Part shown: in pieces, positions 19,439 through 61,732 of the stretch
Layout: every line of letters begins with the position of its first letter
Numbering within the stretch: the stretch's first letter is position 1
IMG/VR virus record: IMGVR_UViG_3300030090_003965
Span: 1-62,136 of that record
Strand: one strand, 5' to 3'
From: a virus
Lineage: Duplodnaviria > Caudoviricetes
DNA: 62,136 nt
Position numbers and translations under genes: made by a program
The notes under the pieces: model-generated
What the model was told of the DNA's origin: nothing
Databases searched by the model: none
Seen by the model: only the letters and a program-made list of their open reading frames with translations

Positions 19439-20902
19439 CTAATAATACACGCGTTGTCGGGGTGGGGTATCGTGGGGTTCGTAGTCTTCGGGGTGGCCAA
19501 TAAAGCCGCCTTCTCTAAAACGGCGCAGGGCTTGGGCAACGGTGTCGAGGTAATCGTCGTGTTCTCCAGCCGGAAACGCCGCACACTCCTCTATGACCTC
19601 TTCGGCCCATAGGGTGTCGGGTGCGTACACCATACCGCTCTCAAACATAGGGGCAACACTGTTTACGCGGCTTATTTTGTCATTACCGCGGCTGGGCGTG
19701 TAGTTAGTAACCGGTATACCCATGCGGCGTAACTCCTGCGTAAGGGGCATACCACTGGCTTTGGCTTCTATGAGAACGGTTTCGGGTTCCCAGTAGTTGT
19801 ATTCCTCCATGGTAATGCGGCGCAGTTCGGGAAAGTCCCAGCGGCCACGGCGGGCGTCACACAGTATAAGGGCAGCAGGCTTGCCTTTTTCGGGGTAAAA
19901 AACACCCCATGTGGTTATTGCGCTGTAGTCGGCTTGTTCCTTTTTGCTAAAGGCGGTGTCGTAGCTTTGCATTACGTAATGCAGGTGGGGGAGCTCCTTA
20001 TCGGGCCACTTTTGCCACCAGTCGCGCTTGAGTATTGCGCTGGTTTCGCTGGTGGGGGACTGCTGCCACTGGGCCTCCCATTTGCTTACGCTCAAACTGG
20101 CACGTACGGCTATTAGGTCTTCCTTAGACCAGTACTCAGGCCATAGGGGGTTTTCGGTCTCGGGCATAAGGGCAGGGAATTCCACTACCTCCCATTTATC
20201 GGCCAAGGGGTCACGGGCCATCTGGCGTATTACCTTGCCGGTTAAGTCGTTTTCGGCCCAGCGGGTCATCACTACTACTATGGCTCCTCCGGGTTGCAGG
20301 CGTTGGCGCGGGCCACTGGTGTACCATTCGTAGGCGTGTTCAAGGGCAGTAGTGCTTAGGGCGTCTTGCTCGCTGTGGGGGTCATCGATAATGAGTAAGT
20401 CTGCGCCACGGCCCGTTACCGCACCACCCGTGCCAGCAGCAAAGTATTCACCGCCCTTGGTGGTTTCCCAACGGCCTGCGGCTTGGCTGTCGGCGCGGAG
20501 CTGCACCCCCTGAAACACCTGCATATACTCCTGCGAGTTCATTAAATTACGCACCTTGCGGCCAAAACGGTAAGCTAATTCAGCGGTGTGGGTGGTCTGC
20601 ATAATCTTAAGCGTAGGGCGGCGGCCCATTAACCACGCAGGCAACAGGTAACTGGCAAATTCACTCTTAGTATGGCGCGGGGCCATATTAACTATAAGGC
20701 GCTTAATGTCGCCGTTAGCAACGGCTTCGAACTTCTGGGCCATAATGCCATGGTGCCTGCCCGCAATAAACTCAGGCCACATAGCACGTACAAAATGGGA
20801 AAAATTCTCGCGGCAAGTATCGGCATGTTCCAAAGCCTGCGCACGGCTCAATAACCTAGCGTAGCTCTTAAGGGTTTCTTCTGGGGTAGACTCTAAGGAC
20901 AT
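19439..20902 (-). CDS. terL: Terminase large subunit
   Basis: Walker A NMAPRHTKS, Walker B LLIIDDP, coupling motif MTRW, nuclease SYDTA / IEAKASG / HDDYLD. Confidence 0.95.
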   Translation of the reverse strand: MSLESTPEETLKSYARLLSRAQALEHADTCRENFSHFVRAMWPEFIAGRHHGIMAQKFEAVANGDIKRLIVNMAPRHTKSEFASYLLPAWLMGRRPTLKIMQTTHTAELAYRFGRKVRNLMNSQEYMQVFQGVQLRADSQAAGRWETTKGGEYFAAGTGGAVTGRGADLLIIDDPHSEQDALSTTALEHAYEWYTSGPRQRLQPGGAIVVVMTRWAENDLTGKVIRQMARDPLADKWEVVEFPALMPETENPLWPEYWSKEDLIAVRASLSVSKWEAQWQQSPTSETSAILKRDWWQKWPDKELPHLHYVMQSYDTAFSKKEQADYSAITTWGVFYPEKGKPAALILCDARRGRWDFPELRRITMEEYNYWEPETVLIEAKASGMPLTQELRRMGIPVTNYTPSRGNDKISRVNSVAPMFESGMVYAPDTLWAEEVIEECAAFPAGEHDDYLDTVAQALRRFREGGFIGHPEDYEPHDTPPRQRVYY

Positions 20903-21203
20903 TTAATAAACAGCAATTTTATAAATTTTTCCACCACCGCAAAAAAGGTACTCGCTCCGCACAATGTATTAACAAGCATTTCATGTGTTTACAATTAAAG
21001 TTAAATAAAAGAAACAACGGAGCAAGCACCAAGCAACAGTGTACACAAATAATAAGTCGTGGGGCAAGGAACAATAATCAAGGACTCCTGTAAGGAGCTT
21101 TATAAAAAATGCCCTAGGATTTTTAGCAAAAACAGTGTTTACATGCTGAGCATATAAACACCGTCTCCGCAAGCGGGGGTCACGGGCTTAAATGCGCACA
21201 CAT

Positions 21204-21240
21204 AAAAAAGCCCGCGCTAGGCTAGGTACCTAGCGCGGGC
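21204..21240 (-). terminator. Rho-independent terminator
   Basis: 12-bp stem GCCCGCGCTAGG / CCTAGCGCGGGC plus T6 on the minus strand, 16 bp after the stop at 21257. Confidence 0.85.
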
Positions 21241-21256
21241 CAGTTTGCGCTAGTTT

Positions 21257-21883
21257 TTAACTAGCTGTTGCGCTGCCCTTAACAGCAAGTTTAATTACTG
21301 GCTTTGGTGTAGCACTTGGCGTAATGCTAAATTTTTTGTTGCATGGGCTACCACCACCATTAAGCGCGGCCACTAACACGCAAGGGTTAGTAGTTACCCC
21401 AGTGCATAACCGTATTAGGCTAAAGTATGCCTGTAGGCAGTACACGGGCTGGGTTGCTGGTGTGTGTTTGTATGCCCCACCATGCCGCGCACTGCTACTA
21501 GCCAACACCATTTGCTGTTGTTTTATGTTGGCGTAGCCGTGGCCTACAATACTGTTAACGGCAGTTTGCCAGCTAGGATGTATGCCATACAACAACCAGT
21601 TTAGTTGCGTAGGCCGTACCCCGTTGGGCTTGCCCTTGTAACCGTAGGCTAGTACTTTTTGCCCCGCGCTTGGTGCGTTAGCTATTGCTGCTTTGCCAGC
21701 TGTGGTTAGCTGCCAAGTAACATTGGCTGGCCCACCAACACTGGCAACCCAAGCTGTAATGGCTTGCGCTTTTACCCATTTATGCGGTTGGTTGCCTGTA
21801 CCCAGTACTAGCTGCGGTATTGCTATAGTTGGCGCGTTTACTGTTGCGCTACCTGTAGCGGTTTTACGTTTTGCTTTTTGCAT
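21257..21883 (-). CDS. Basic 208-aa hypothetical protein with no Asp or Glu; paralogue of 23045..23506
   Basis: Likely start is ATG 21883 behind an AAAGGGT SD; it has its own promoter and terminator; motif-level similarity to 23045..23506 supports a real gene. Confidence 0.75.
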   Translation of the reverse strand: MQKAKRKTATGSATVNAPTIAIPQLVLGTGNQPHKWVKAQAITAWVASVGGPANVTWQLTTAGKAAIANAPSAGQKVLAYGYKGKPNGVRPTQLNWLLYGIHPSWQTAVNSIVGHGYANIKQQQMVLASSSARHGGAYKHTPATQPVYCLQAYFSLIRLCTGVTTNPCVLVAALNGGGSPCNKKFSITPSATPKPVIKLAVKGSATAS

Positions 21884-21959
21884 TTGTTTACCCTTTATAT
21901 GGTTAAGTGTTTTGGCTTTATTGCCATGTGGCCAGCCAGCATTGGCGACCACATAAGTA

Positions 21960-21987
21960 ATTATACTTACCTATACAGTATTTACAA
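21960..21987 (-). promoter_or_regulatory. Sigma70-like promoter TTGTAA-N16-TATAAT
   Basis: Reverse complement reads ttgtaa atactgtataggtaag tataat, upstream of the Asp/Glu-free gene. Confidence 0.65.
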
Positions 21988-22130
21988 GTACTTATACAAC
22001 TATTATGTAATGTTGTATTTACAGCTATTATTGTACGCACGGACGCGAATGGATATGAGTAGAATTGATATGATGTGATGATGCATACCACACGCACATC
22101 TCTCTCTTCTAGTTAAATCTAGGTAAATAG

Positions 22131-22329
22131 TTTAGCTTAATCCTATGATAAATGGCTCACTCTTCCTCGTCTGCGACGGTGACGGTGATGTTGCTGAAGC
22201 GCACGAAAACGCCTCCCTCACCGTCGTCGTCGAGCAATTCCTCGAAGTCTACGTCGGTTTCCAGAACCATTTCGCATAGGCGGTTGAAAAACTCGTCGCG
22301 GTTCATTTTAGCTTAATCCTATGATAAAT
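22131..22329. repeat. 23-bp perfect direct repeat TTTAGCTTAATCCTATGATAAAT at 22131-22153 and 22307-22329
   Basis: Read directly; the copies flank the 49-aa acidic ORF. Confidence 0.9.
22157..22306 (-). CDS. 49-aa very acidic protein (MNRDEFFNRLCEMVLETDVDFEELLDDDGEGGVFVRFSNITVTVADEEE)
   Basis: Below the ORF-track cutoff; AGGA SD lies inside the upstream repeat; 16 of 49 residues are D or E. Confidence 0.7.
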   Translation of the reverse strand: MNRDEFFNRLCEMVLETDVDFEELLDDDGEGGVFVRFSNITVTVADEEE

Positions 22330-22864: not shown

Positions 22865-22893
22865 AGTGTAAAGTCCTTACATAGGACTGGCAA
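22865..22893 (-). promoter_or_regulatory. Sigma70 promoter TTGCCA-N17-TACACT with spacer palindrome GTCCT-N5-AGGAC
   Basis: Read directly; member of a repeated family. Confidence 0.75.
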
Positions 22894-22991
22894 CCCCCTA
22901 AGTAGTCAACTCCATTCATTTCTATTCATAGTTATAGGTAGTATAGACGGGCGTGTTCGTCTCAAGTCTGGGTTAATCTCTCTCAGTAAAT

Positions 22992-23044: not shown

Positions 23045-23506
23045 TTAGTTGTTTTTAGCAACCGATAACTGAACCCAAGGCCCTTGCAGCCAAGCCTTGG
23101 CACTAGGACTATACCCACCATTCAACAGTGCAATGGTGCAAATCATAGTCTGTGCGCTGTGGCCGTCCACCTTACGCATGGCAGCAAGAATGTTGCCAAG
23201 GCGACGGTCGCCCGTTTTGCCATGCCCCTGCTTTAGACCAAACAGGTGGAAGTCATGGTACATGGCCCTTACGCCTCCGGCCCTGCTGTACCCGAACGGG
23301 GTAGGCTTTTGGTCCTTAAGGCGGCAGTTTTCCAACGGCGTTACGACCACGTTGTTAAGCTGCCCGTCCGCGTGTTGAGCTATCCAGTCATGTACCTGCT
23401 TGGCCGTGACTTCTACACCCTTTACAACAGGAAACACCAGAGCTTTGCCCGTGGTCTTTTTAACCACTTTCTTAGCTGTGGATTTTTTACGTACTGCGCT
23501 TTTCAT
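23045..23506 (-). CDS. Basic hypothetical protein, paralogue of 21257..21883
   Basis: AAAGGAG SD, own promoter and terminator; Lys-rich N-terminus; ALLNGGYSP. Confidence 0.75.
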   Translation of the reverse strand: MKSAVRKKSTAKKVVKKTTGKALVFPVVKGVEVTAKQVHDWIAQHADGQLNNVVVTPLENCRLKDQKPTPFGYSRAGGVRAMYHDFHLFGLKQGHGKTGDRRLGNILAAMRKVDGHSAQTMICTIALLNGGYSPSAKAWLQGPWVQLSVAKNN

Positions 23507-23567
23507 ACAATACTCCTTTCTGTGAGTATGGTTACTGTGACTAGTCCAATACCAGCCACTTACCCAT

Positions 23568-23596
23568 AGTATATGCTCCTTAGCTAGGAACTACAA
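23568..23596 (-). promoter_or_regulatory. Sigma70 promoter TTGTAG-N17-TATACT with spacer palindrome TCCT-N5-AGGA
   Basis: Read directly. Confidence 0.75.
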
Positions 23597-23735
23597 GTAC
23601 TATTTAATCATCTTCTTTTATCCTCTTTCCGGGGACTAGAAACGAAAAGACTTGAACCGAAGACAAAGGAGGATTGATGATTATTGACGAGGAAAGGAAG
23701 ACTTGAACCATGCACCGTGGTACAAGGCCAACGGC

Positions 23736-24188
23736 TCAAGGTGTTTCTCTCTCCCTAGGTAAATCTTGTCCTCTCCTTATAGAAGAAAGAAGATGATTGA
23801 GGAACCCTGCCCAATCAAAAGGACTTCCCGAAGACCAGACTGGGGTAAAAGGGGCTTTTTCAGTGGTTAATCCAGCAAGGCCCATGACCTGTTCTCCTGA
23901 AAATAAATTGATAGTCCTCTCTGGGGGATGTCCAACCAAGTTCCAAACGAGTCCCCCATGACTAAAATACTGTGTTTGCCAAGAGATTTGATGTGGTCGG
24001 AACTTTACTGACTTAAGTGTCTTTAATCTGTGAACCTTTAGTTCTAACCAAAAAGGTGTACCGTCTAACAGGCCGTGTAAGTCGGGTACTCCCGGAGCAG
24101 CCCACGACTCTATACGTGTCCACAACACCTGTTCTTTAGTCCCGTCACGTAGCTGTTTCCAAAGCCTGCTTTCCGGTTTACTGGGCAT
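23736..24188 (-). CDS. PD-(D/E)XK nuclease (VRR-NUC / Holliday junction resolvase-like)
   Basis: E..LW, GVPDL, FWLELK, RPHQISW motifs. Confidence 0.8.
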   Translation of the reverse strand: MPSKPESRLWKQLRDGTKEQVLWTRIESWAAPGVPDLHGLLDGTPFWLELKVHRLKTLKSVKFRPHQISWQTQYFSHGGLVWNLVGHPPERTINLFSGEQVMGLAGLTTEKAPFTPVWSSGSPFDWAGFLNHLLSSIRRGQDLPRERETP

Positions 24189-24730
24189 TACTGTTCTACG
24201 GTTTCTACCTCGGTTACGTCTATTACATTGCCCGCACTCACGGCAGCTAGTCCGGGGAATTCCTCTTGGAGGCGGTGTATTTCAGCCATTACTTGCTCGC
24301 GTGACATCTGGTCTATTTTACCGTGCAGTATTTCCTTACGGTCTATGTACAGGCCAGCAGCCTGACCACGGTACTTTTCAGCTGACACAGCGGCAGAAAA
24401 ATTGTTGTTATCAATGGCGGTGTCACGTAGTTCAGCTAGTTTTTGTACGTGGTTTTCAAATGTAACCTCGTATTTTTTAGCCAACTCGCTTTTGACTTCC
24501 CTTACACGGGCTACCACATGGGGATAGTCCCTGCCGTTTAACAATTGACTAGCTATGGCATGGGCACTGGCAGGACTGTAGCCAGCGCGGACTGCGGCTT
24601 CGGTTTGGGTCACATCCTCGCTGCTGTATATACGGCAGAACTCCTCTTGCTTGGGTGTTATCTGCTTTTCGGTACGAGGGTTTGCTACAACGTCTAGTTT
24701 GGGTTTATGAGTTTGTTTTGACTTAGGCAT
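24188..24730 (-). CDS. terS: Terminase small subunit
   Basis: TPKQEEFC..Y....TQTEAAVRAGYS...A...ASQLL HTH; SAAVSAE..RG.AAGLY. Confidence 0.85.
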   Translation of the reverse strand: MPKSKQTHKPKLDVVANPRTEKQITPKQEEFCRIYSSEDVTQTEAAVRAGYSPASAHAIASQLLNGRDYPHVVARVREVKSELAKKYEVTFENHVQKLAELRDTAIDNNNFSAAVSAEKYRGQAAGLYIDRKEILHGKIDQMSREQVMAEIHRLQEEFPGLAAVSAGNVIDVTEVETVEQ

Positions 24731-27627: not shown

Positions 27628-27656
27628 AGCATAAGGTCTACTTACCTGACTAGCAA
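27628..27656 (-). promoter_or_regulatory. Sigma70 promoter TTGCTA-N17-TATGCT
   Basis: Spacer GTC-N9-GAC; shares the block CTTACCTGACTAGCAAC with 45342-45371. Confidence 0.65.
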
Positions 27657-28097
27657 CTGTACGGGTTCCCATTTGGCCTGCATATCGGCAATCGTTTGGG
27701 CGGGCACACCGTGAATATTACCAAAGTCGTTTTGGGTTTCCAAAATAAAGACACCCCAGCGGTAAGTATCTGCTAGTTGTAGGTAGGGGTCAAGTTCGGC
27801 CTGTTTACTGAACGTATTACTCACAATACATCGGTAGTGGTATGGGTGTGCTTCTGCGGCGGCATTTTTCATATAGGCTTCTACTTTGTCTTGGCAATAC
27901 TGGTGAGCTTGCTGTAGCTTGGTGCCGTCAAAGTTGTATTCACCTGTTGTGGGGTCGGTAAAGTATTGGTCAGCCTCGCACAGGAGTGGGGTGTTTAGCA
28001 AATTATATCCAGCACGTATTATCCGCGCCAGTGTAGTTTTACCTGACCCGGGAAGGCCTCGAATCAGGTACAGTACACGTAGGTTTCTGGTAGCCAT
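27642..28097 (-). CDS. P-loop (AAA_33-like) nucleotide/polynucleotide kinase
   Basis: LIRGLPGSGKTT, EADQYF, AH..CQ, VSNTF, HGVP. Confidence 0.8.
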   Translation of the reverse strand: MATRNLRVLYLIRGLPGSGKTTLARIIRAGYNLLNTPLLCEADQYFTDPTTGEYNFDGTKLQQAHQYCQDKVEAYMKNAAAEAHPYHYRCIVSNTFSKQAELDPYLQLADTYRWGVFILETQNDFGNIHGVPAQTIADMQAKWEPVQLLVR

Positions 28098-37519: not shown

Positions 37520-37833
37520 AAAAGTAACTCAGACTCAACAAGTAATAAATATCTACGTAAATCTCTAATGTCGTCTATTATACCTTCTTCTGTCTCATCG
37601 TCTGCTTGGTCTTTTAAGGTTCTAAATATATCGTAAGAGTCCCCGCCTTCCTGTGCTTGAAACGTTACTTGGTTTTCTATTCTGTCCCACTTACGGGCCA
37701 GCATCATAAAGGCCCCTACACCGCCCCGTTTTTTCCAACTATTACCGTAGTATTCTTCGGCTTTAGTTAAAGCCTTTTGGTCCTCTTCGAGAATACTGGG
37801 CAGCAGGTATAGGTTACTGTTTGGGTGTGACAT
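37501..37833 (-). CDS. Nucleotide-modification-associated alpha-helical protein (Nmad1/DUF1599, MazG-like)
   Basis: K...YG.SW..RG..G.F....RK.DR...D...DL..Y..L; coupled to the thymidylate synthase-like gene. Confidence 0.7.
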   Translation of the reverse strand: MSHPNSNLYLLPSILEEDQKALTKAEEYYGNSWKKRGGVGAFMMLARKWDRIENQVTFQAQEGGDSYDIFRTLKDQADDETEEGIIDDIRDLRRYLLLVESELLLWKNHT

Positions 37834-38894
37834 TATGGTTTCTCCGCATCAAATTGAACGCCGCCTCTTCTGCTGAGCCATTCGTGCAGGGCTATGGCCC
37901 AGTCTTCCGCTTGAATGCACTGTGCTGTAAAGTCGGCTTGGTAAGTGTTTTTGCCTTTTTCTTTATATAGTTTCCATGCTCTGAGCATTTTTATGGCCAC
38001 ATGGGGGAAAAAGGAATTTTTCCAGTGTGGTTTTAGCCACTTTTCTCTTGTGGGGTCGTACACTGCTCCCACGCTGTCTACACCAAAAAACTGTTCCAGT
38101 TCTTGGTCAAAGGAATTTATGTCATCTACTAAGGGCCTTGGTTGTATTAAACGGCTGCCGTAGGCGTCGTAGTCGGGTTGCATGTTTTCTAGCTTTTTAA
38201 GTGGTTCCAAGTACGCGTGGAAGTTATTGCTAAACTGGGTATAAATACCTACTTTAGTTCCTGTTTTTGCTGCCATATACTCTTGCAATACCGACATGTG
38301 AACGGCATTTGCCCCCAGTGCTCCCCAGATCATATCGTTGCTGCGGTTAACAACAGTCATGTCTAAGTGTTCACCCCTTTTTTGAAAGTAAATCTGTGTG
38401 TTACAGGGATAGTCTTTACCATCGTTTGTTTGTACTAAGTCTTCAGTTGCATCCCACATGGAAACCACGGTGCGTCGGTCGTTTTTGTAGGTAAGCAACC
38501 GGTGAACGGCGTGTTCAAGCTGGTCTTTGCCAAACCAGTATCGCCAGCGGTGGCCATACGCCCCATGAAAGGTTTTGCCATCGTCGCTGTAAGTGTTTAT
38601 TCTGCCGTTAAACTGGCTAATCCAGTCTACGTCGTTACGGCCTTGCAGCATCCATAACGACTCCATTAGGTGAAACACAGGGTTAGCGTCCCGTTGGGGG
38701 TAAAACAGTACTCTTTCGCAAGGGTTGTTATACGTAATAGCTACGGGGGTGTCGAACTCTAGGGCAGGCCCATTACGGGTTTGTATAGTTGTGCCTTCCT
38801 CTTCTAGGGCAGTCTTACACAGGTATAAGGCCTCGCTAACGTTGCGCACGGTAAAGGTTCTTACTCCTTTTAGCCTAGGGGAATCATAGGTCAC
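37833..38894 (-). CDS. Thymidylate synthase-family enzyme, probably dUMP hydroxymethylase
   Basis: GAYG.RWR, RR.V..MWD, catalytic PCN, NRSNDMIWG...AN (RSND plus Asn at the dUMP-specificity position), NFHAY. Confidence 0.85.
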   Translation of the reverse strand: MTYDSPRLKGVRTFTVRNVSEALYLCKTALEEEGTTIQTRNGPALEFDTPVAITYNNPCERVLFYPQRDANPVFHLMESLWMLQGRNDVDWISQFNGRINTYSDDGKTFHGAYGHRWRYWFGKDQLEHAVHRLLTYKNDRRTVVSMWDATEDLVQTNDGKDYPCNTQIYFQKRGEHLDMTVVNRSNDMIWGALGANAVHMSVLQEYMAAKTGTKVGIYTQFSNNFHAYLEPLKKLENMQPDYDAYGSRLIQPRPLVDDINSFDQELEQFFGVDSVGAVYDPTREKWLKPHWKNSFFPHVAIKMLRAWKLYKEKGKNTYQADFTAQCIQAEDWAIALHEWLSRRGGVQFDAEKP

Positions 38895-39823
38895 GGTACG
38901 GCTCCAATAACAGAGGGTTGATCACGAAACACCGGATGTGTAAAGCCATCAAACTTTGACCGAGGCTTGCCTTGGCCTTGGCGTACTCGTTCGTATTTAT
39001 CCCATTCGCACAGGCTGTGCTCTATAGTACGCATGTCTATTTGTTTAACGGGGCATTTTCCCTTGCAGTAAAAAGTTGCTGCATACATAAGTTCTTGCAT
39101 TTCCTGATTAGCCTGTACGTCTTTTATTGATTTTTTTAATGGTCTGTTCTGTAAGCGGTTAAGACCACGCTTGGCTCCGGGACCGGCATTGGCCCAAGAA
39201 AATCTGTCCTGTGCGTGTTGCAACACAGGGGTGTAGTTAAGGTCGGTAACTACTTCGTAGGCCATAAAACCTCCACCACCCCATCCGGTAAAGGTACCCA
39301 GAACTTTGTGTAGGCTCTGTAAACTGTTAGAGATTTTTGCCACTTGTTCCAGAGAATCACGGGCCTCCCAAATGGGGGTTAAAAAGTAATCAGAAACTAC
39401 TTCCGATTTCTTTAGCTTTAGCCCCTGATTAGTAACAATGTAGGCTCCCGTAAAGGTAGGCCGCTTGTTTTGCAAACGGGTTTCTATTACAGCCTTGGTA
39501 TAGGCGGGATTCCAGTTTGTTACCCAACCGTGTTCTTCGGCAAAACCGGAAGTCCCCACACACCTAAACAAGCAGCAGTTAAAGATAATTTCTCCCCATG
39601 GACGGTCTTTGTTAGGTTCTGTCCAGTTTTTCCGCATCCATACGGTTACTCTGTCGTTTTCTCTAAAGGGGTTAGTAAACTTGTATTCCTGTAGTATGGG
39701 GTCTTGAGTCCATGGGGCAGCTTGTCCTGAGGCTCTTCGTTGATAAATGGCGTGTCGTTCGTTTATCCAGCCAAAAAACCTTTCTACGGCTTCGGGGTTA
39801 GCGTGAGCTGTACGGTGCCAGAT
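38891..39823 (-). CDS. aGPT-Pplase1 (PF18723-type) thymidine hypermodification enzyme
   Basis: The frame extends 62 codons above the track's ATG and there contains ERH.IY..R....PWT.DPIL.EYKFTN.FRE.DR; the body has GF.AYE...DL, GPGA.RGL, IEH.LCE.DKY.R. Confidence 0.8.
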   Translation of the reverse strand: MWHRTAHANPEAVERFFGWINERHAIYQRRASGQAAPWTQDPILQEYKFTNPFRENDRVTVWMRKNWTEPNKDRPWGEIIFNCCLFRCVGTSGFAEEHGWVTNWNPAYTKAVIETRLQNKRPTFTGAYIVTNQGLKLKKSEVVSDYFLTPIWEARDSLEQVAKISNSLQSLHKVLGTFTGWGGGGFMAYEVVTDLNYTPVLQHAQDRFSWANAGPGAKRGLNRLQNRPLKKSIKDVQANQEMQELMYAATFYCKGKCPVKQIDMRTIEHSLCEWDKYERVRQGQGKPRSKFDGFTHPVFRDQPSVIGAVP

Positions 39824-60880: not shown

Positions 60881-61065
60881 TTTCTACGTCGTTTAACTGT
60901 TTTAGTTGTGTAGGCTTCATTGCGGTCGGGAGTAGTGGGGTCATCCGCTTTGTACTTACCCTGCTTGTTTCTAGCTCGTACGGTGATTTCTTCTCTCCGT
61001 AATACCACCCTGTTAAACCACTTACTGAACGGTACCATCTTTATCAACCTCCACTTTCCAAACAT
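60877..61065 (-). CDS. Small basic hypothetical protein
   Basis: RAR...G.Y.ADDP.TPD.NEAY motif; true start probably the second Met. Confidence 0.55.
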   Translation of the reverse strand: MFGKWRLIKMVPFSKWFNRVVLRREEITVRARNKQGKYKADDPTTPDRNEAYTTKTVKRRRK

Positions 61066-61732
61066 TTAAGTTAGCGGCTACAGTGCGGCGTTCGCCTTCG
61101 CCCTTAAAGGGGTAGACCATGTGCTGTAACCAACTAGGAAACATATAGAGCTTACCGACCTGCGGCTGCAACGATGTGGACTGTGGGGGCCGTAACCGCT
61201 CCACATCCATAAGAGAGTTTCTGCCGTACTGAAATGCCAGATAGCCGTCACAAGCTCCACTGGAGTTGTAAAGGCTGTAGTTTGGTGTGCCTGCTGTAGG
61301 CTGATCCAGTATCTGCTGCGGAACCTTAGTCCAGCAGGTTACTGAAATCCCCATAATGGTTTTAGTGCCGTGGTCATGGATAGGATTGTAGTCACCCTCA
61401 AAGCTATGAACTGACCACAACTCATCAACCTCAACCTTGCGTGTTCCTGCCAAGATGTTTGCAGTCTGCTGGCTAAAGTGCTTGATATACTCGATACCAA
61501 GGCCACAGATAAGATCAGAAAATTCCTTTAACTCAGGAGATTCGTGATTCATCGTCAGTTGCTGACCATGCTGAATCTGTCCTACCAGAGTCCCGGCATG
61601 AGATCGACGTTCTTCGCTCTCAAGCAGTTCGTCCAGATAGCCATTCAGACCATCAACCATCTCTGGCGGCAGATTCGTTTCCAGCATATACGCCGCAGGC
61701 AGTGTCCAGTTCTGAAATTGAATTTCTGGCAT
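61022..61732 (-). CDS. 2OG-Fe(II) oxygenase-family protein
   Basis: W.V....GDYNP.HDH, P..G.L..FPSWL.H.VYPF....ERR..A.N. Confidence 0.85.
   Translation of the reverse strand: MPEIQFQNWTLPAAYMLETNLPPEMVDGLNGYLDELLESEERRSHAGTLVGQIQHGQQLTMNHESPELKEFSDLICGLGIEYIKHFSQQTANILAGTRKVEVDELWSVHSFEGDYNPIHDHGTKTIMGISVTCWTKVPQQILDQPTAGTPNYSLYNSSGACDGYLAFQYGRNSLMDVERLRPPQSTSLQPQVGKLYMFPSWLQHMVYPFKGEGERRTVAANLNVWKVEVDKDGTVQ

What the first reader, a model, noticed from the sequence alone, without database searches (positions are those of the whole stretch)
21182..22041. 860-bp island almost free of GA/TC dinucleotides, holding a complete transcription unit
Seen: by hand count the plus strand has 0 TC and 2 GA (21577, 21947) in 860 bp, against roughly 100 expected for uniform composition. 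GA and TC are reverse complements, so the exclusion covers both strands. The right edge is sharp, with GA/TC-dense sequence from 22042. The island covers a promoter, an AAAGGGT SD in place of AAGGAG, a 208-codon ORF and a 12-bp-stem terminator. Non-coding parts obey the rule too, so selection appears to act on the DNA and not only on the protein. Inference: lying between terS and terL, it may be the genome end that is packaged last and injected first. It could lack TC (a) to stay unmodified by the phage's own thymidine-hypermodification enzymes so host RNA polymerase can read it, or (b) to evade host defences whose sites contain GA/TC (GATC, GANTC and many restriction sites; DarT-type TNTC/TCT ADP-ribosylation) until a counter-defence is made. 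I know of no named description of such an element.
Basis: partly seen in the sequence, partly recalled or inferred. Interest (0 to 1): 0.95.

Follow-up and report, generated by a model that had tools for sequence, protein, structure and literature searches.

The report
Phage gene cassette purged of GA/TC
An uncultured marine phage that carries thymine-modification genes keeps one small gene, with its promoter and terminator, free of the two-letter DNA step GA/TC. This costs the protein all its aspartate and glutamate, an ordinary twin gene lies nearby, and the stretch probably stays unmodified DNA as a result.

Summary
Window 21181-22041 has 0 TC and 2 GA where about 80 are expected. It is the only such stretch in the 62-kb phage genome. 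It matches one transcription unit: a sigma-70 promoter, gene F (208 codons, no Asp/Glu) and a terminator. Selection acts on the DNA. Synonymous resampling of the same protein gives 36.6±4.8 GA/TC against 1 seen, and the non-coding flanks obey the rule too. Relatives with 52-62% island DNA identity keep 848-873 bp with zero GA/TC.

New here:
- F is the recoded twin of an ordinary gene N (23045-23506).
- 11 of 12 related genomes carry one normal and one purged copy.
- The purged-type copy always lies directly upstream of terL.
- One sublineage has relaxed the purge, and genome-wide GA/TC depletion roughly tracks how complete the island is.
- Arrays of TC phased at exactly 5 bp lie upstream of F and N in the window's lineages.

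Best reading (about 0.5): the phage's thymine modification is TC-specific, so the cassette stays ordinary DNA. The modification context, the protein's function and the timing are not shown. The genome-end idea has no support. This scan noted the same phenomenon before on other DNA (40 notes in at least 35 genomes). I found no paper describing it.

The parts
21181..22041 (.). GA/TC-free island: 0 TC and 2 GA on the plus strand
21960..21987 (-). sigma-70-type promoter of F, TTGTAA-16-TATAAT, with no operator palindrome. The GA/TC-free DNA runs 54 bp further upstream of the -35 hexamer.
21890..21896 (-). Shine-Dalgarno AAAGGGT, a GA-free substitute for GGAG
21257..21883 (-). gene F: 208 codons, no Asp/Glu. 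It is under purifying selection (dN/dS 0.15-0.31) and is the recoded member of the N/F family.
21209..21241 (-). intrinsic terminator of F: 14-pair stem, 10 G-C pairs, then a T run
22042..22078 (-). (TCNNN)x8 array on the coding strand, at the upstream edge of the island. Phased TC arrays are present in 11 of 11 related loci that reach this edge, with different spacers.
22099..22110 (-). AGAAGAGAGAGA purine tract just upstream of the array, followed by an alternating Pu/Py stretch; similar tracts occur in L085, L006 and L022
23045..23506 (-). gene N: the ordinary twin of F, 153 aa, 8 Asp/Glu, 30 GA/TC
23634..23660 (-). (TCNNN)x6 array inside a TC-rich tract of about 90 nt, upstream of the N promoter
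22906..22927 (-). (GANNN)x5 array in coding orientation, between N and the next promoter
38891..39823 (-). PF18723 / aGPT-Pplase1-family protein, homologue of M6 gp55, YuA gp14, Pam3 gp50 and PhiW-14 gp72
37833..38894 (-). thymidylate-synthase-family enzyme, 353 aa
19439..20902 (-). terL, the first gene after the cassette; F or its relaxed counterpart lies directly upstream of terL in 12 of 12 genomes
24188..24730 (-). terS, for context

Best explanation
The island is one complete sigma-70 transcription unit: promoter, leader, gene F and terminator. Selection on the DNA itself has removed the step 5'-TC-3'/5'-GA-3' from both strands. F is an old, recoded duplicate of the ordinary gene N, 1.2 kb upstream. 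The phage belongs to the uncultivated HTVC023P-type pelagiphages that carry thymidine-hypermodification genes (a TS-family enzyme plus aGPT-Pplase1). Most likely the phage decorates thymines in the TC context. A cassette with no TC on either strand then stays ordinary DNA inside a decorated chromosome. Its promoter and template can be used by unmodified host RNA polymerase whatever the modification state, for example on incoming virion DNA. That would supply a starter version of a protein whose better copy, N (with Asp/Glu), lies in modified DNA. Shown: the purge, its DNA-level nature, its conservation, the twin arrangement and its fixed place before terL. Inferred: that the agent is the phage's own modification, that it is TC-specific, that it hampers transcription, and the timing. 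The biochemical role of N/F is unknown. It is a small basic protein with a Lys/Thr-rich tail and no known fold.
For: (1) The purge works at the dinucleotide level, on both strands, and includes untranscribed promoter DNA. In eight further complete or near-complete islands with a promoter scoring at least 9 of 12, the GA/TC-free zone extends 11-69 bp upstream of the -35 hexamer. (2) Conservation: L003/L008 have 0 GA/TC in 873-875 bp; L006 has 0 in 854-856 bp, L009 0 in 866-868 bp and L010 0 in 848-850 bp. These differ from the window's island at 113 to 390 aligned positions, and 33% of possible substitutions would create GA/TC. (3) In 11 of 12 whole genomes there is one normal copy (8-17 Asp/Glu, 30-69 GA/TC) and one purged copy (0-3 Asp/Glu, 0-6 GA/TC). 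Among 139 family ORFs, 80 are normal, 51 purged and 8 intermediate, and in most purged copies the remaining GA/TC equal the retained Asp/Glu codons. (4) hhalign of F family against N family gives probability 99%, E 2e-18. (5) PF18723 is present in 14 of 16 records holding the family and in 11 of 11 records at least 90% complete; the TS-family gene is present. The cultured relatives HTVC027P and DSL-LC04 lack PF18723 and the N/F family, and show no island within 9 kb of terL. (6) Literature: restriction-resistant sites in M6, ViI and PhiW-14 share TG or TC (PMC6449724 abstract and passages). dapT lies mainly at TG and less at TC (PMC13458397 section 45). A phage T-dioxygenase prefers NTC (PMC13229309 section 8). 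(7) Genome-wide depletion: symmetrised odds ratio rho* for GA/TC is 0.74 in the window and codon-junction observed/expected is 0.54-0.66. Depletion is strongest in the genomes with the most complete islands (0.74-0.80) and absent where the purge is lost (0.94), with intermediates not strictly ordered.
Against: No data show any modified base, its context, or an effect on transcription. The window has no BLAST-level homologue of the M6 5-hmdU DNA kinase gp54 or of the transferase gp51. These two searches had no positive control. Its PF18723 protein matches M6 gp55, which Lee et al. found dispensable in vitro (PMC8989533 passages). M6 and Pam3 carry the same gene family but have no dinucleotide-free island of any class over their whole genomes. 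G010-type phages keep TS, PF18723 and the GT homologue yet have lost both the purge and the genome-wide depletion. If the mark protects the phage, genome-wide avoidance of its target needs an added assumption, namely a cost per site. Why one gene of unknown function needs this treatment is unexplained.
Confidence: 0.5

Rival explanations
1. A host factor, not the phage's own mark, reads the bare TC/GA step. Candidates would be a TC-specific DNA deaminase, ADP-ribosyltransferase or nuclease. F would be the antidote or essential function whose gene must stay undamaged, and the rest of the genome lowers its target count as far as coding allows.
For: Genome-wide depletion that varies between lineages and disappears in one sublineage is what host-driven motif avoidance looks like. 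G010-type phages lost the purge while keeping the modification genes.
Against: The DarT-type TNTC motif and the sites GATC and GANTC would leave other TC/GA in place, and none remain. That TC-preferring deaminases exist, and that I know of no defence with a pure dinucleotide target on dsDNA, are recalled and come from no call. PADLOC gives no hit for F, N or their neighbours. This reading does not explain the strict link with the TS/aGPT-Pplase1 clade.
Confidence: 0.15
2. Self-exemption. The N/F protein itself binds TC steps (modified or not) and coats or silences DNA. F's own cassette lacks sites so it escapes its product. The phased TC arrays upstream are nucleation or autoregulatory sites.
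For: F has no acidic residue and a Lys-rich N-terminal tail. The weak structural matches are mostly to winged-helix domains. All three 5-bp-phased arrays in the 62-kb genome lie in the N-F module, upstream of three consecutive promoters.
Against: Structure matches are below any useful threshold (Z at most 5.0) and DNA binding is not shown. Phased arrays are absent upstream of several other purged lineages, including L053/L057, L016/L022 and L021/L023. N, the ordinary twin, is not exempt.
Confidence: 0.12
3. The purge is a cis-acting DNA requirement of packaging or injection, such as a pac region or a leading genome end that must be plain DNA. The gene inside would be incidental.
For: The cassette lies directly upstream of terL in 12 of 12 genomes, also where N has moved elsewhere. 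Several metagenomic contigs end inside it.
Against: The limits follow the promoter and terminator of one gene family, not a fixed distance from terL. In partly purged lineages only the coding part is depleted. G010-type phages share 77% identical TerL and have no island. Contig ends differ between genomes.
Confidence: 0.05
4. RNA-level immunity: the F mRNA escapes an endoribonuclease that cuts at GA or UC, by analogy with ACA-less mRNAs that escape MazF (recalled).
For: The transcribed part is free of both GA and UC.
Against: Both complementary dinucleotides are excluded. The exclusion also covers 54 bp upstream of the window's -35 and 11-69 bp upstream of it in the eight scored islands, plus DNA beyond the terminator.
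Confidence: 0.04

Closest known systems
Dinucleotide-context thymidine hypermodification from 5-hmdU (Pseudomonas phage M6, Salmonella ViI, Delftia PhiW-14, Acinetobacter SH-Ab 15599)
   Same: The window has a TS-family gene and an aGPT-Pplase1/PF18723 gene next to PolA. In those phages the marks sit at TG/TC dinucleotides (PMC6449724; PMC13458397). That is the only documented DNA-level agent of this kind whose genes are present here.
   Different: No homologue of the M6 kinase gp54 or transferase gp51 was detected. The chemistry and context here are unknown. M6 and Pam3 have no modification-free island and no N/F gene.
Restriction-site or short-motif avoidance in phage genomes
   Same: A short sequence is removed by selection on the DNA and not on the protein, with weaker genome-wide depletion (rho* 0.74).
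   Different: The target is a bare, non-palindromic dinucleotide. It is removed completely but only locally, over one transcription unit. The cost is two amino acids, and an unrecoded twin is kept.
ACA-less mRNAs that escape MazF (recalled, not looked up)
   Same: The logic is immunity through absence of the target sequence in one gene.
   Different: That case acts on one RNA strand only. Here both strands and untranscribed promoter DNA are purged.
dPreQ0 modification with a strict GA motif by DpdA of Pseudomonas phage iggy (PMC10484667, search listing and abstract only)
   Same: It is a phage DNA modification defined by the GA dinucleotide.
   Different: No TGT/DpdA homologue is present in the window genome, while the control genomes all gave hits.
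Uncultivated HTVC023P-type pelagiphages with TS plus aG/PT-PPlase1 and curli T8SS (PMC9599517)
   Same: The gene content and synteny match, and TerL is about 60% identical to HTVC027P and 023Pt_psg01.
   Different: That paper does not hold the word 'dinucleotide' and does not describe the cassette or the twin genes (its supplements could not be seen).

Membership tests
5-hmdU-derived thymidine hypermodification system | TS-family dUMP hydroxymethylase | tested here: inconclusive
   A TS-family protein is present (PF00303 E 7e-21, phrog_5131 E 1e-106). Hydroxymethylase versus methylase activity cannot be told from these hits.
5-hmdU-derived thymidine hypermodification system | aGPT-Pplase-type / PF18723 protein | tested here: met
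   PF18723 E 8e-51. It is 35% identical to M6 ORF055 and matches records annotated aGPT-Pplase1.
5-hmdU-derived thymidine hypermodification system | P-loop 5-hmdU DNA kinase (M6 gp54 type) | tested here: inconclusive
   There is no match to M6 gp54 at E<=0.01, in a search without a positive control. A 151-aa AAA_33 P-loop kinase at 27642-28097 shares only the Walker A motif with gp54.
5-hmdU-derived thymidine hypermodification system | clade-2 aGPT-Pplase (amino acid:DNA transferase, M6 gp51 type) | tested here: inconclusive
   There is no match to M6 gp51 at E<=0.01, in a search without a positive control.
5-hmdU-derived thymidine hypermodification system | modified thymine in virion DNA in a defined dinucleotide context | not testable with these tools
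   Only assembled contigs of public runs were available.
Restriction-site avoidance | the avoided word is a 4-8 bp recognition site, usually palindromic | tested here: not met
   Every GA and TC is removed whatever its neighbours. CTAG, GGTACC and AGCT remain in the island.
mRNA-level target avoidance (MazF/ACA-less type) | avoidance limited to the transcribed strand and region | tested here: not met
   Both complementary dinucleotides are absent, and so is GA/TC in the promoter DNA upstream of -35.
DpdA 7-deazaguanine modification with GA motif | TGT/DpdA transglycosylase encoded | tested here: not met
   PF01702 gave 0 matches in the window genome and 14 of 14 in the control genomes.
5mYOX thymine dioxygenase pathway (NTC preference) | Tet/JBP-family dioxygenase | tested here: inconclusive
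   PF12851 gave no match, but nothing rang in the controls either. The 2OG oxygenase at 61022-61732 is PF13759.
N/F protein family (unnamed) | motifs PFGY-x-GK-xx-GVR and ALLNGG[YG]SP, and a Lys/Thr-rich N-terminal tail | tested here: met
   Alignments A2-A6 and hhalign probability 99%. There is no Pfam, PHROG or PADLOC family.

The most novel reading that the evidence does not exclude
These pelagiphages run a sequence-patterned epigenetic layer. A TC-specific bulky thymine mark covers the chromosome. One pioneer cassette is written without any TC so that it alone is plain DNA. That would be a new regulatory principle: gene control by the designed presence or absence of modification sites.
Probability: 0.15. 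Interest if true: 0.9.

Novelty: new variant of a known kind. Interest (0 to 1): 0.8.

Why it matters
If the reading is right, the island is a sequence-only readout of which dinucleotide a phage modifies. That makes the context specificity of an uncharacterised hypermodification testable in uncultured, ocean-abundant pelagiphages. It would also show that a base modification can be costly enough for a phage to rewrite a gene, giving up two amino acids and keeping a second copy. It points to a small, widespread protein family of unknown fold as a key player. Finally, it gives a simple genomic signature, a local dinucleotide-free transcription unit, for finding such systems.

Tried and rejected
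- **Protein function.** Pfam, PHROGs and PADLOC gave nothing for F or N. The whole-library phmmer search found only family members (P0005-P0007) and two repeat-protein false hits. The ESM Atlas gave no usable hit.
- **Structure.** The AlphaFold models (F pLDDT 73, N pLDDT 83) gave no Foldseek match with E<=0.001 in PDB or BFVD. VIA-align gave Z of at most 4.4 and 5.0, mostly scattered winged-helix domains. This is too weak to name a fold.
- **Cultured phages.** tblastn of F and N against 50,697 phage records found no match. Megablast of 10 kb around the island found no match.
- **Read evidence.** All 24 listed runs are kept as contigs and no RNA holder is listed. Laying 4 runs gave contigs only, so depth, termini and expression could not be read. 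Contigs break in the variable middle of F.
- **Gene content.** I looked for a gene that co-varies with the purge. One cluster is present in 8 of 10 island genomes and absent from G010 and G011, but it is also absent from the window and from G007, so I rejected it.
- **Other dinucleotides.** No GA/TC-like outlier was seen for the other nine classes. Long CG-, GC-, AT- or TA-free runs occur, but those are rare dinucleotides in these genomes.
- **-35 hexamers.** 0 of 15 promoter-like matches in the window have TTGA, but counts in the other genomes are small and noisy, so I use this only as a side note.
- **Supplements.** Supplementary files of PMC9599517, PMC6449724 and PMC8989533 could not be seen and may hold gene tables or site lists that bear on these points.
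Full report
**What the window is.** The window is a whole IMG/VR virus record: 62,136 bp, 97% complete, classed linear. Nearly all genes lie on the minus strand. Around the finding, in the direction of transcription, the order is:
- terS (24188-24730)
- a VRR-NUC-like gene (23736-24188)
- a 153-aa ORF, here called N (23045-23506)
- a 138-aa ORF and a 49-aa ORF
- the island with a 208-codon ORF, here called F (21257-21883)
- terL (19439-20902) and the portal gene

TerL is about 60% identical to Pelagibacter phages HTVC027P and HTVC023P and to phage 023Pt_psg01. Gene content matches the uncultivated HTVC023P-type pelagiphages described in PMC9599517 (passages read). It includes a TS-family enzyme, a PF18723/aGPT-Pplase1 protein, PolA, an HD nucleotidase, UvrD, an AEP primase, SNF2 and a 2OG oxygenase.

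**The observation.** Window 21181-22041 has 0 TC and 2 GA on the plus strand, where the genome's own rates predict 79.7.
- The three longest GA/TC-free gaps of the genome are adjacent and form the island. The fourth longest is 73 bp.
- Re-encoding the same Asp/Glu-free protein with the genome's codon usage gives 36.6±4.8 GA/TC, with a minimum of 18 in 20,000 draws. One is seen. So the purge goes beyond amino-acid content.
- The 158 bp of promoter and leader hold 1, and the 76 bp of 3' end hold 0, against an intergenic density of 0.088.
- The promoter is TTGTAA-16-TATAAT at 21987-21960 and the terminator is a 14-pair hairpin at 21241-21209. The purged DNA therefore runs from 54 bp upstream of the -35 hexamer to about 28 bp past the terminator stem.
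- The other dinucleotide classes are not depleted.

**Conservation.** Searches with F found relatives at 35-98% protein identity. None has an acidic residue, except one Asp in P0001. At the DNA level:
- L003/L008 (85% protein identity) have 0 GA/TC in 873-875 bp.
- L006 has 0 in 854-856 bp, L009 has 0 in 866-868 bp and L010 has 0 in 848-850 bp.
- L004, L005, L011 and L012 have 0 up to the contig end (361-558 bp).
- The near-identical L002 has 4 and L007 has 1.

The islands differ from the window's at 113 (L003) to 390 (L010) aligned positions. One third of all possible substitutions would create GA/TC. F is a real gene: dN/dS is 0.15-0.31 in four comparisons.

**The twin genes.** BLASTP of F against N is weak (E 0.009). 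Profile-profile comparison of the two families gives probability 99% and E 2e-18, with shared motifs PFGY-GK-GVR and ALLNGG[YG]SP. A search of viral contigs with the N family gave 80 kept loci out of 93 confirmed.
- Of the 89 loci then held, 52 (including L001, the window's own stretch) have a GA/TC-free run over 200 bp.
- Of 139 family ORFs in L002-L089, 80 are normal (25 or more GA/TC), 51 are purged (6 or fewer) and 8 are intermediate. In most purged copies the remaining GA/TC number equals the number of retained Asp/Glu codons.
- In 12 whole genomes (the window plus 11 fetched), 11 have one normal and one purged copy. G010 has two normal copies, and G011's purged copy has 6 GA/TC.
- Each genome has only one such island.
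- The purged copy, or G010's relaxed counterpart, lies directly upstream of terL in 12 of 12 genomes. This holds in G012 and G013 too, where N sits elsewhere.

A maximum-likelihood tree of 73 rows puts most normal copies in one part of the tree. The purged copies form the remainder. The relaxed second copies of G010-type phages (34-41 GA/TC) sit on the purged side as a clade with 98/98 support. This fits an old duplication followed by loss of the constraint in one sublineage. One caveat applies: the shared Asp/Glu-free composition may pull purged copies together.

**Genome-wide signal.** The symmetrised odds ratio (rho*) for GA/TC is:
- 0.74 in the window
- 0.79-0.80 in G012, G013 and G007
- 0.84-0.92 in seven others
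- 0.94 in G010

Codon-junction observed/expected is 0.66 (T|C) and 0.54 (G|A) in the window, against 0.82 and 0.91 in G010. So the pressure acts across the genome. It is strongest where the island is most complete and vanishes where the purge is lost, though the intermediate genomes do not rank in strict order.

**Phased arrays.** Directly upstream of the island, on the coding strand, TC recurs at exactly 5 bp:
- 8 units in the window, L002, L003, L004, L007 and L008
- 6 units in L006, L010, L012 and L013
- 13 units in L009
- 10 units in L011

The spacers differ between lineages. L085 has 6 units about 25 bp upstream of its island, and L038/L077 have a (TCA)n run. The whole window has three such arrays of 5 or more units, against 0.056 expected; 1 of 50 simulated genomes had any. 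All three lie in the N-F module, upstream of the N, ORF138 and F promoters. Other purged lineages lack them. Their role is unknown.

**What agent reads TC/GA.** The exclusion is of the bare dinucleotide, so motifs such as GATC, GANTC or TNTC do not explain it. It includes promoter DNA and both strands, so an RNA-level reading is unlikely.

The genome encodes thymidine-modification genes. PF18723 is present in 14 of 16 records holding the family, and in 11 of 11 that are at least 90% complete; L008 and L009 were not held. Three papers place related thymine chemistry at dinucleotides:
- The resistant sites of M6, ViI and PhiW-14 share TG or TC (PMC6449724 abstract and passages).
- dapT lies mainly at TG and less at TC (PMC13458397 section 45).
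- A phage thymine dioxygenase prefers NTC (PMC13229309 section 8).

No DpdA is encoded. The most economical reading is therefore a TC-specific thymine mark, with the cassette as a mark-free zone.

**Evidence against this reading.**
- No homologue of the M6 kinase gp54 or transferase gp51 was found, in searches without a positive control.
- The window's PF18723 protein corresponds to M6 gp55, which was dispensable in vitro (PMC8989533 passages).
- A small AAA_33 kinase at 27642-28097 shares only the Walker A motif with gp54.
- M6 and Pam3 have PF18723 but neither the N/F family nor any dinucleotide-free island.
- G010-type phages keep the modification genes without the purge.
- Nothing here shows a modified base.

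**Function of N/F.** It is unknown. No family, fold or atlas match is usable. The N model is confident (pLDDT 83, core above 90), so the fold may be new. A weak or missing match does not prove that.

**Literature.** Five full-text searches and passages of the pelagiphage paper turned up no description of a dinucleotide-free cassette or of the twin genes. Subscription journals and supplements were not searched.

**Earlier notes of this scan.** Earlier notes report the same phenomenon on other DNA: 40 notes in at least 35 genomes. Two of them (e1-5952764, e1-6207981) describe a recoded twin in marine phages. I treat these as leads only.

**Verdict.** The modification-free reading is the best supported but is indirect. 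The genome-end idea is unsupported.

Noticed in passing
window 22131-22306: The 49-aa acidic ORF between 23-bp direct repeats is an indel polymorphism. Contigs of runs X4 and X6 join 22130 to 22307, and L003 and L008 lack the ORF.
   Followed up: partly
window 21090-21180, and loci L016, L022, L038, L053, L057, L077, L079 downstream of their islands: A conserved element lies between the F terminator and terL: a C run, then GAGAC, then a GTTTTG...GAATCTTCGA-like box. It may be the late promoter or another control site.
   Followed up: no
window 27642-28097 (-): This is a small P-loop kinase (PF13671 E 1.8e-8) and a possible DNA-base kinase of the modification pathway. It shares only the Walker A motif with M6 gp54.
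   Followed up: partly
window 22865-22893 and 23545-23575 (-): The promoters of ORF138 and of N carry a TCCT-N5-AGGA palindrome in the spacer. The F promoter has none.
   Followed up: partly
window, all ORF-upstream regions: 0 of 15 TTGNNN-N16-18-TANNNT matches have A at the fourth position of the -35 hexamer, so the GA of the consensus TTGACA is absent.
   Followed up: partly
window 21300-21700: The middle of F is the most variable part in the population, and many public contigs break there.
   Followed up: no
L015:2580-2660; window 22082-22098: Alternating purine-pyrimidine tracts, (CACG)n in L015 and TGTGCGTGTG in the window, lie next to the TC-rich tracts upstream of the island. These sequences are prone to non-B DNA.
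   Followed up: no
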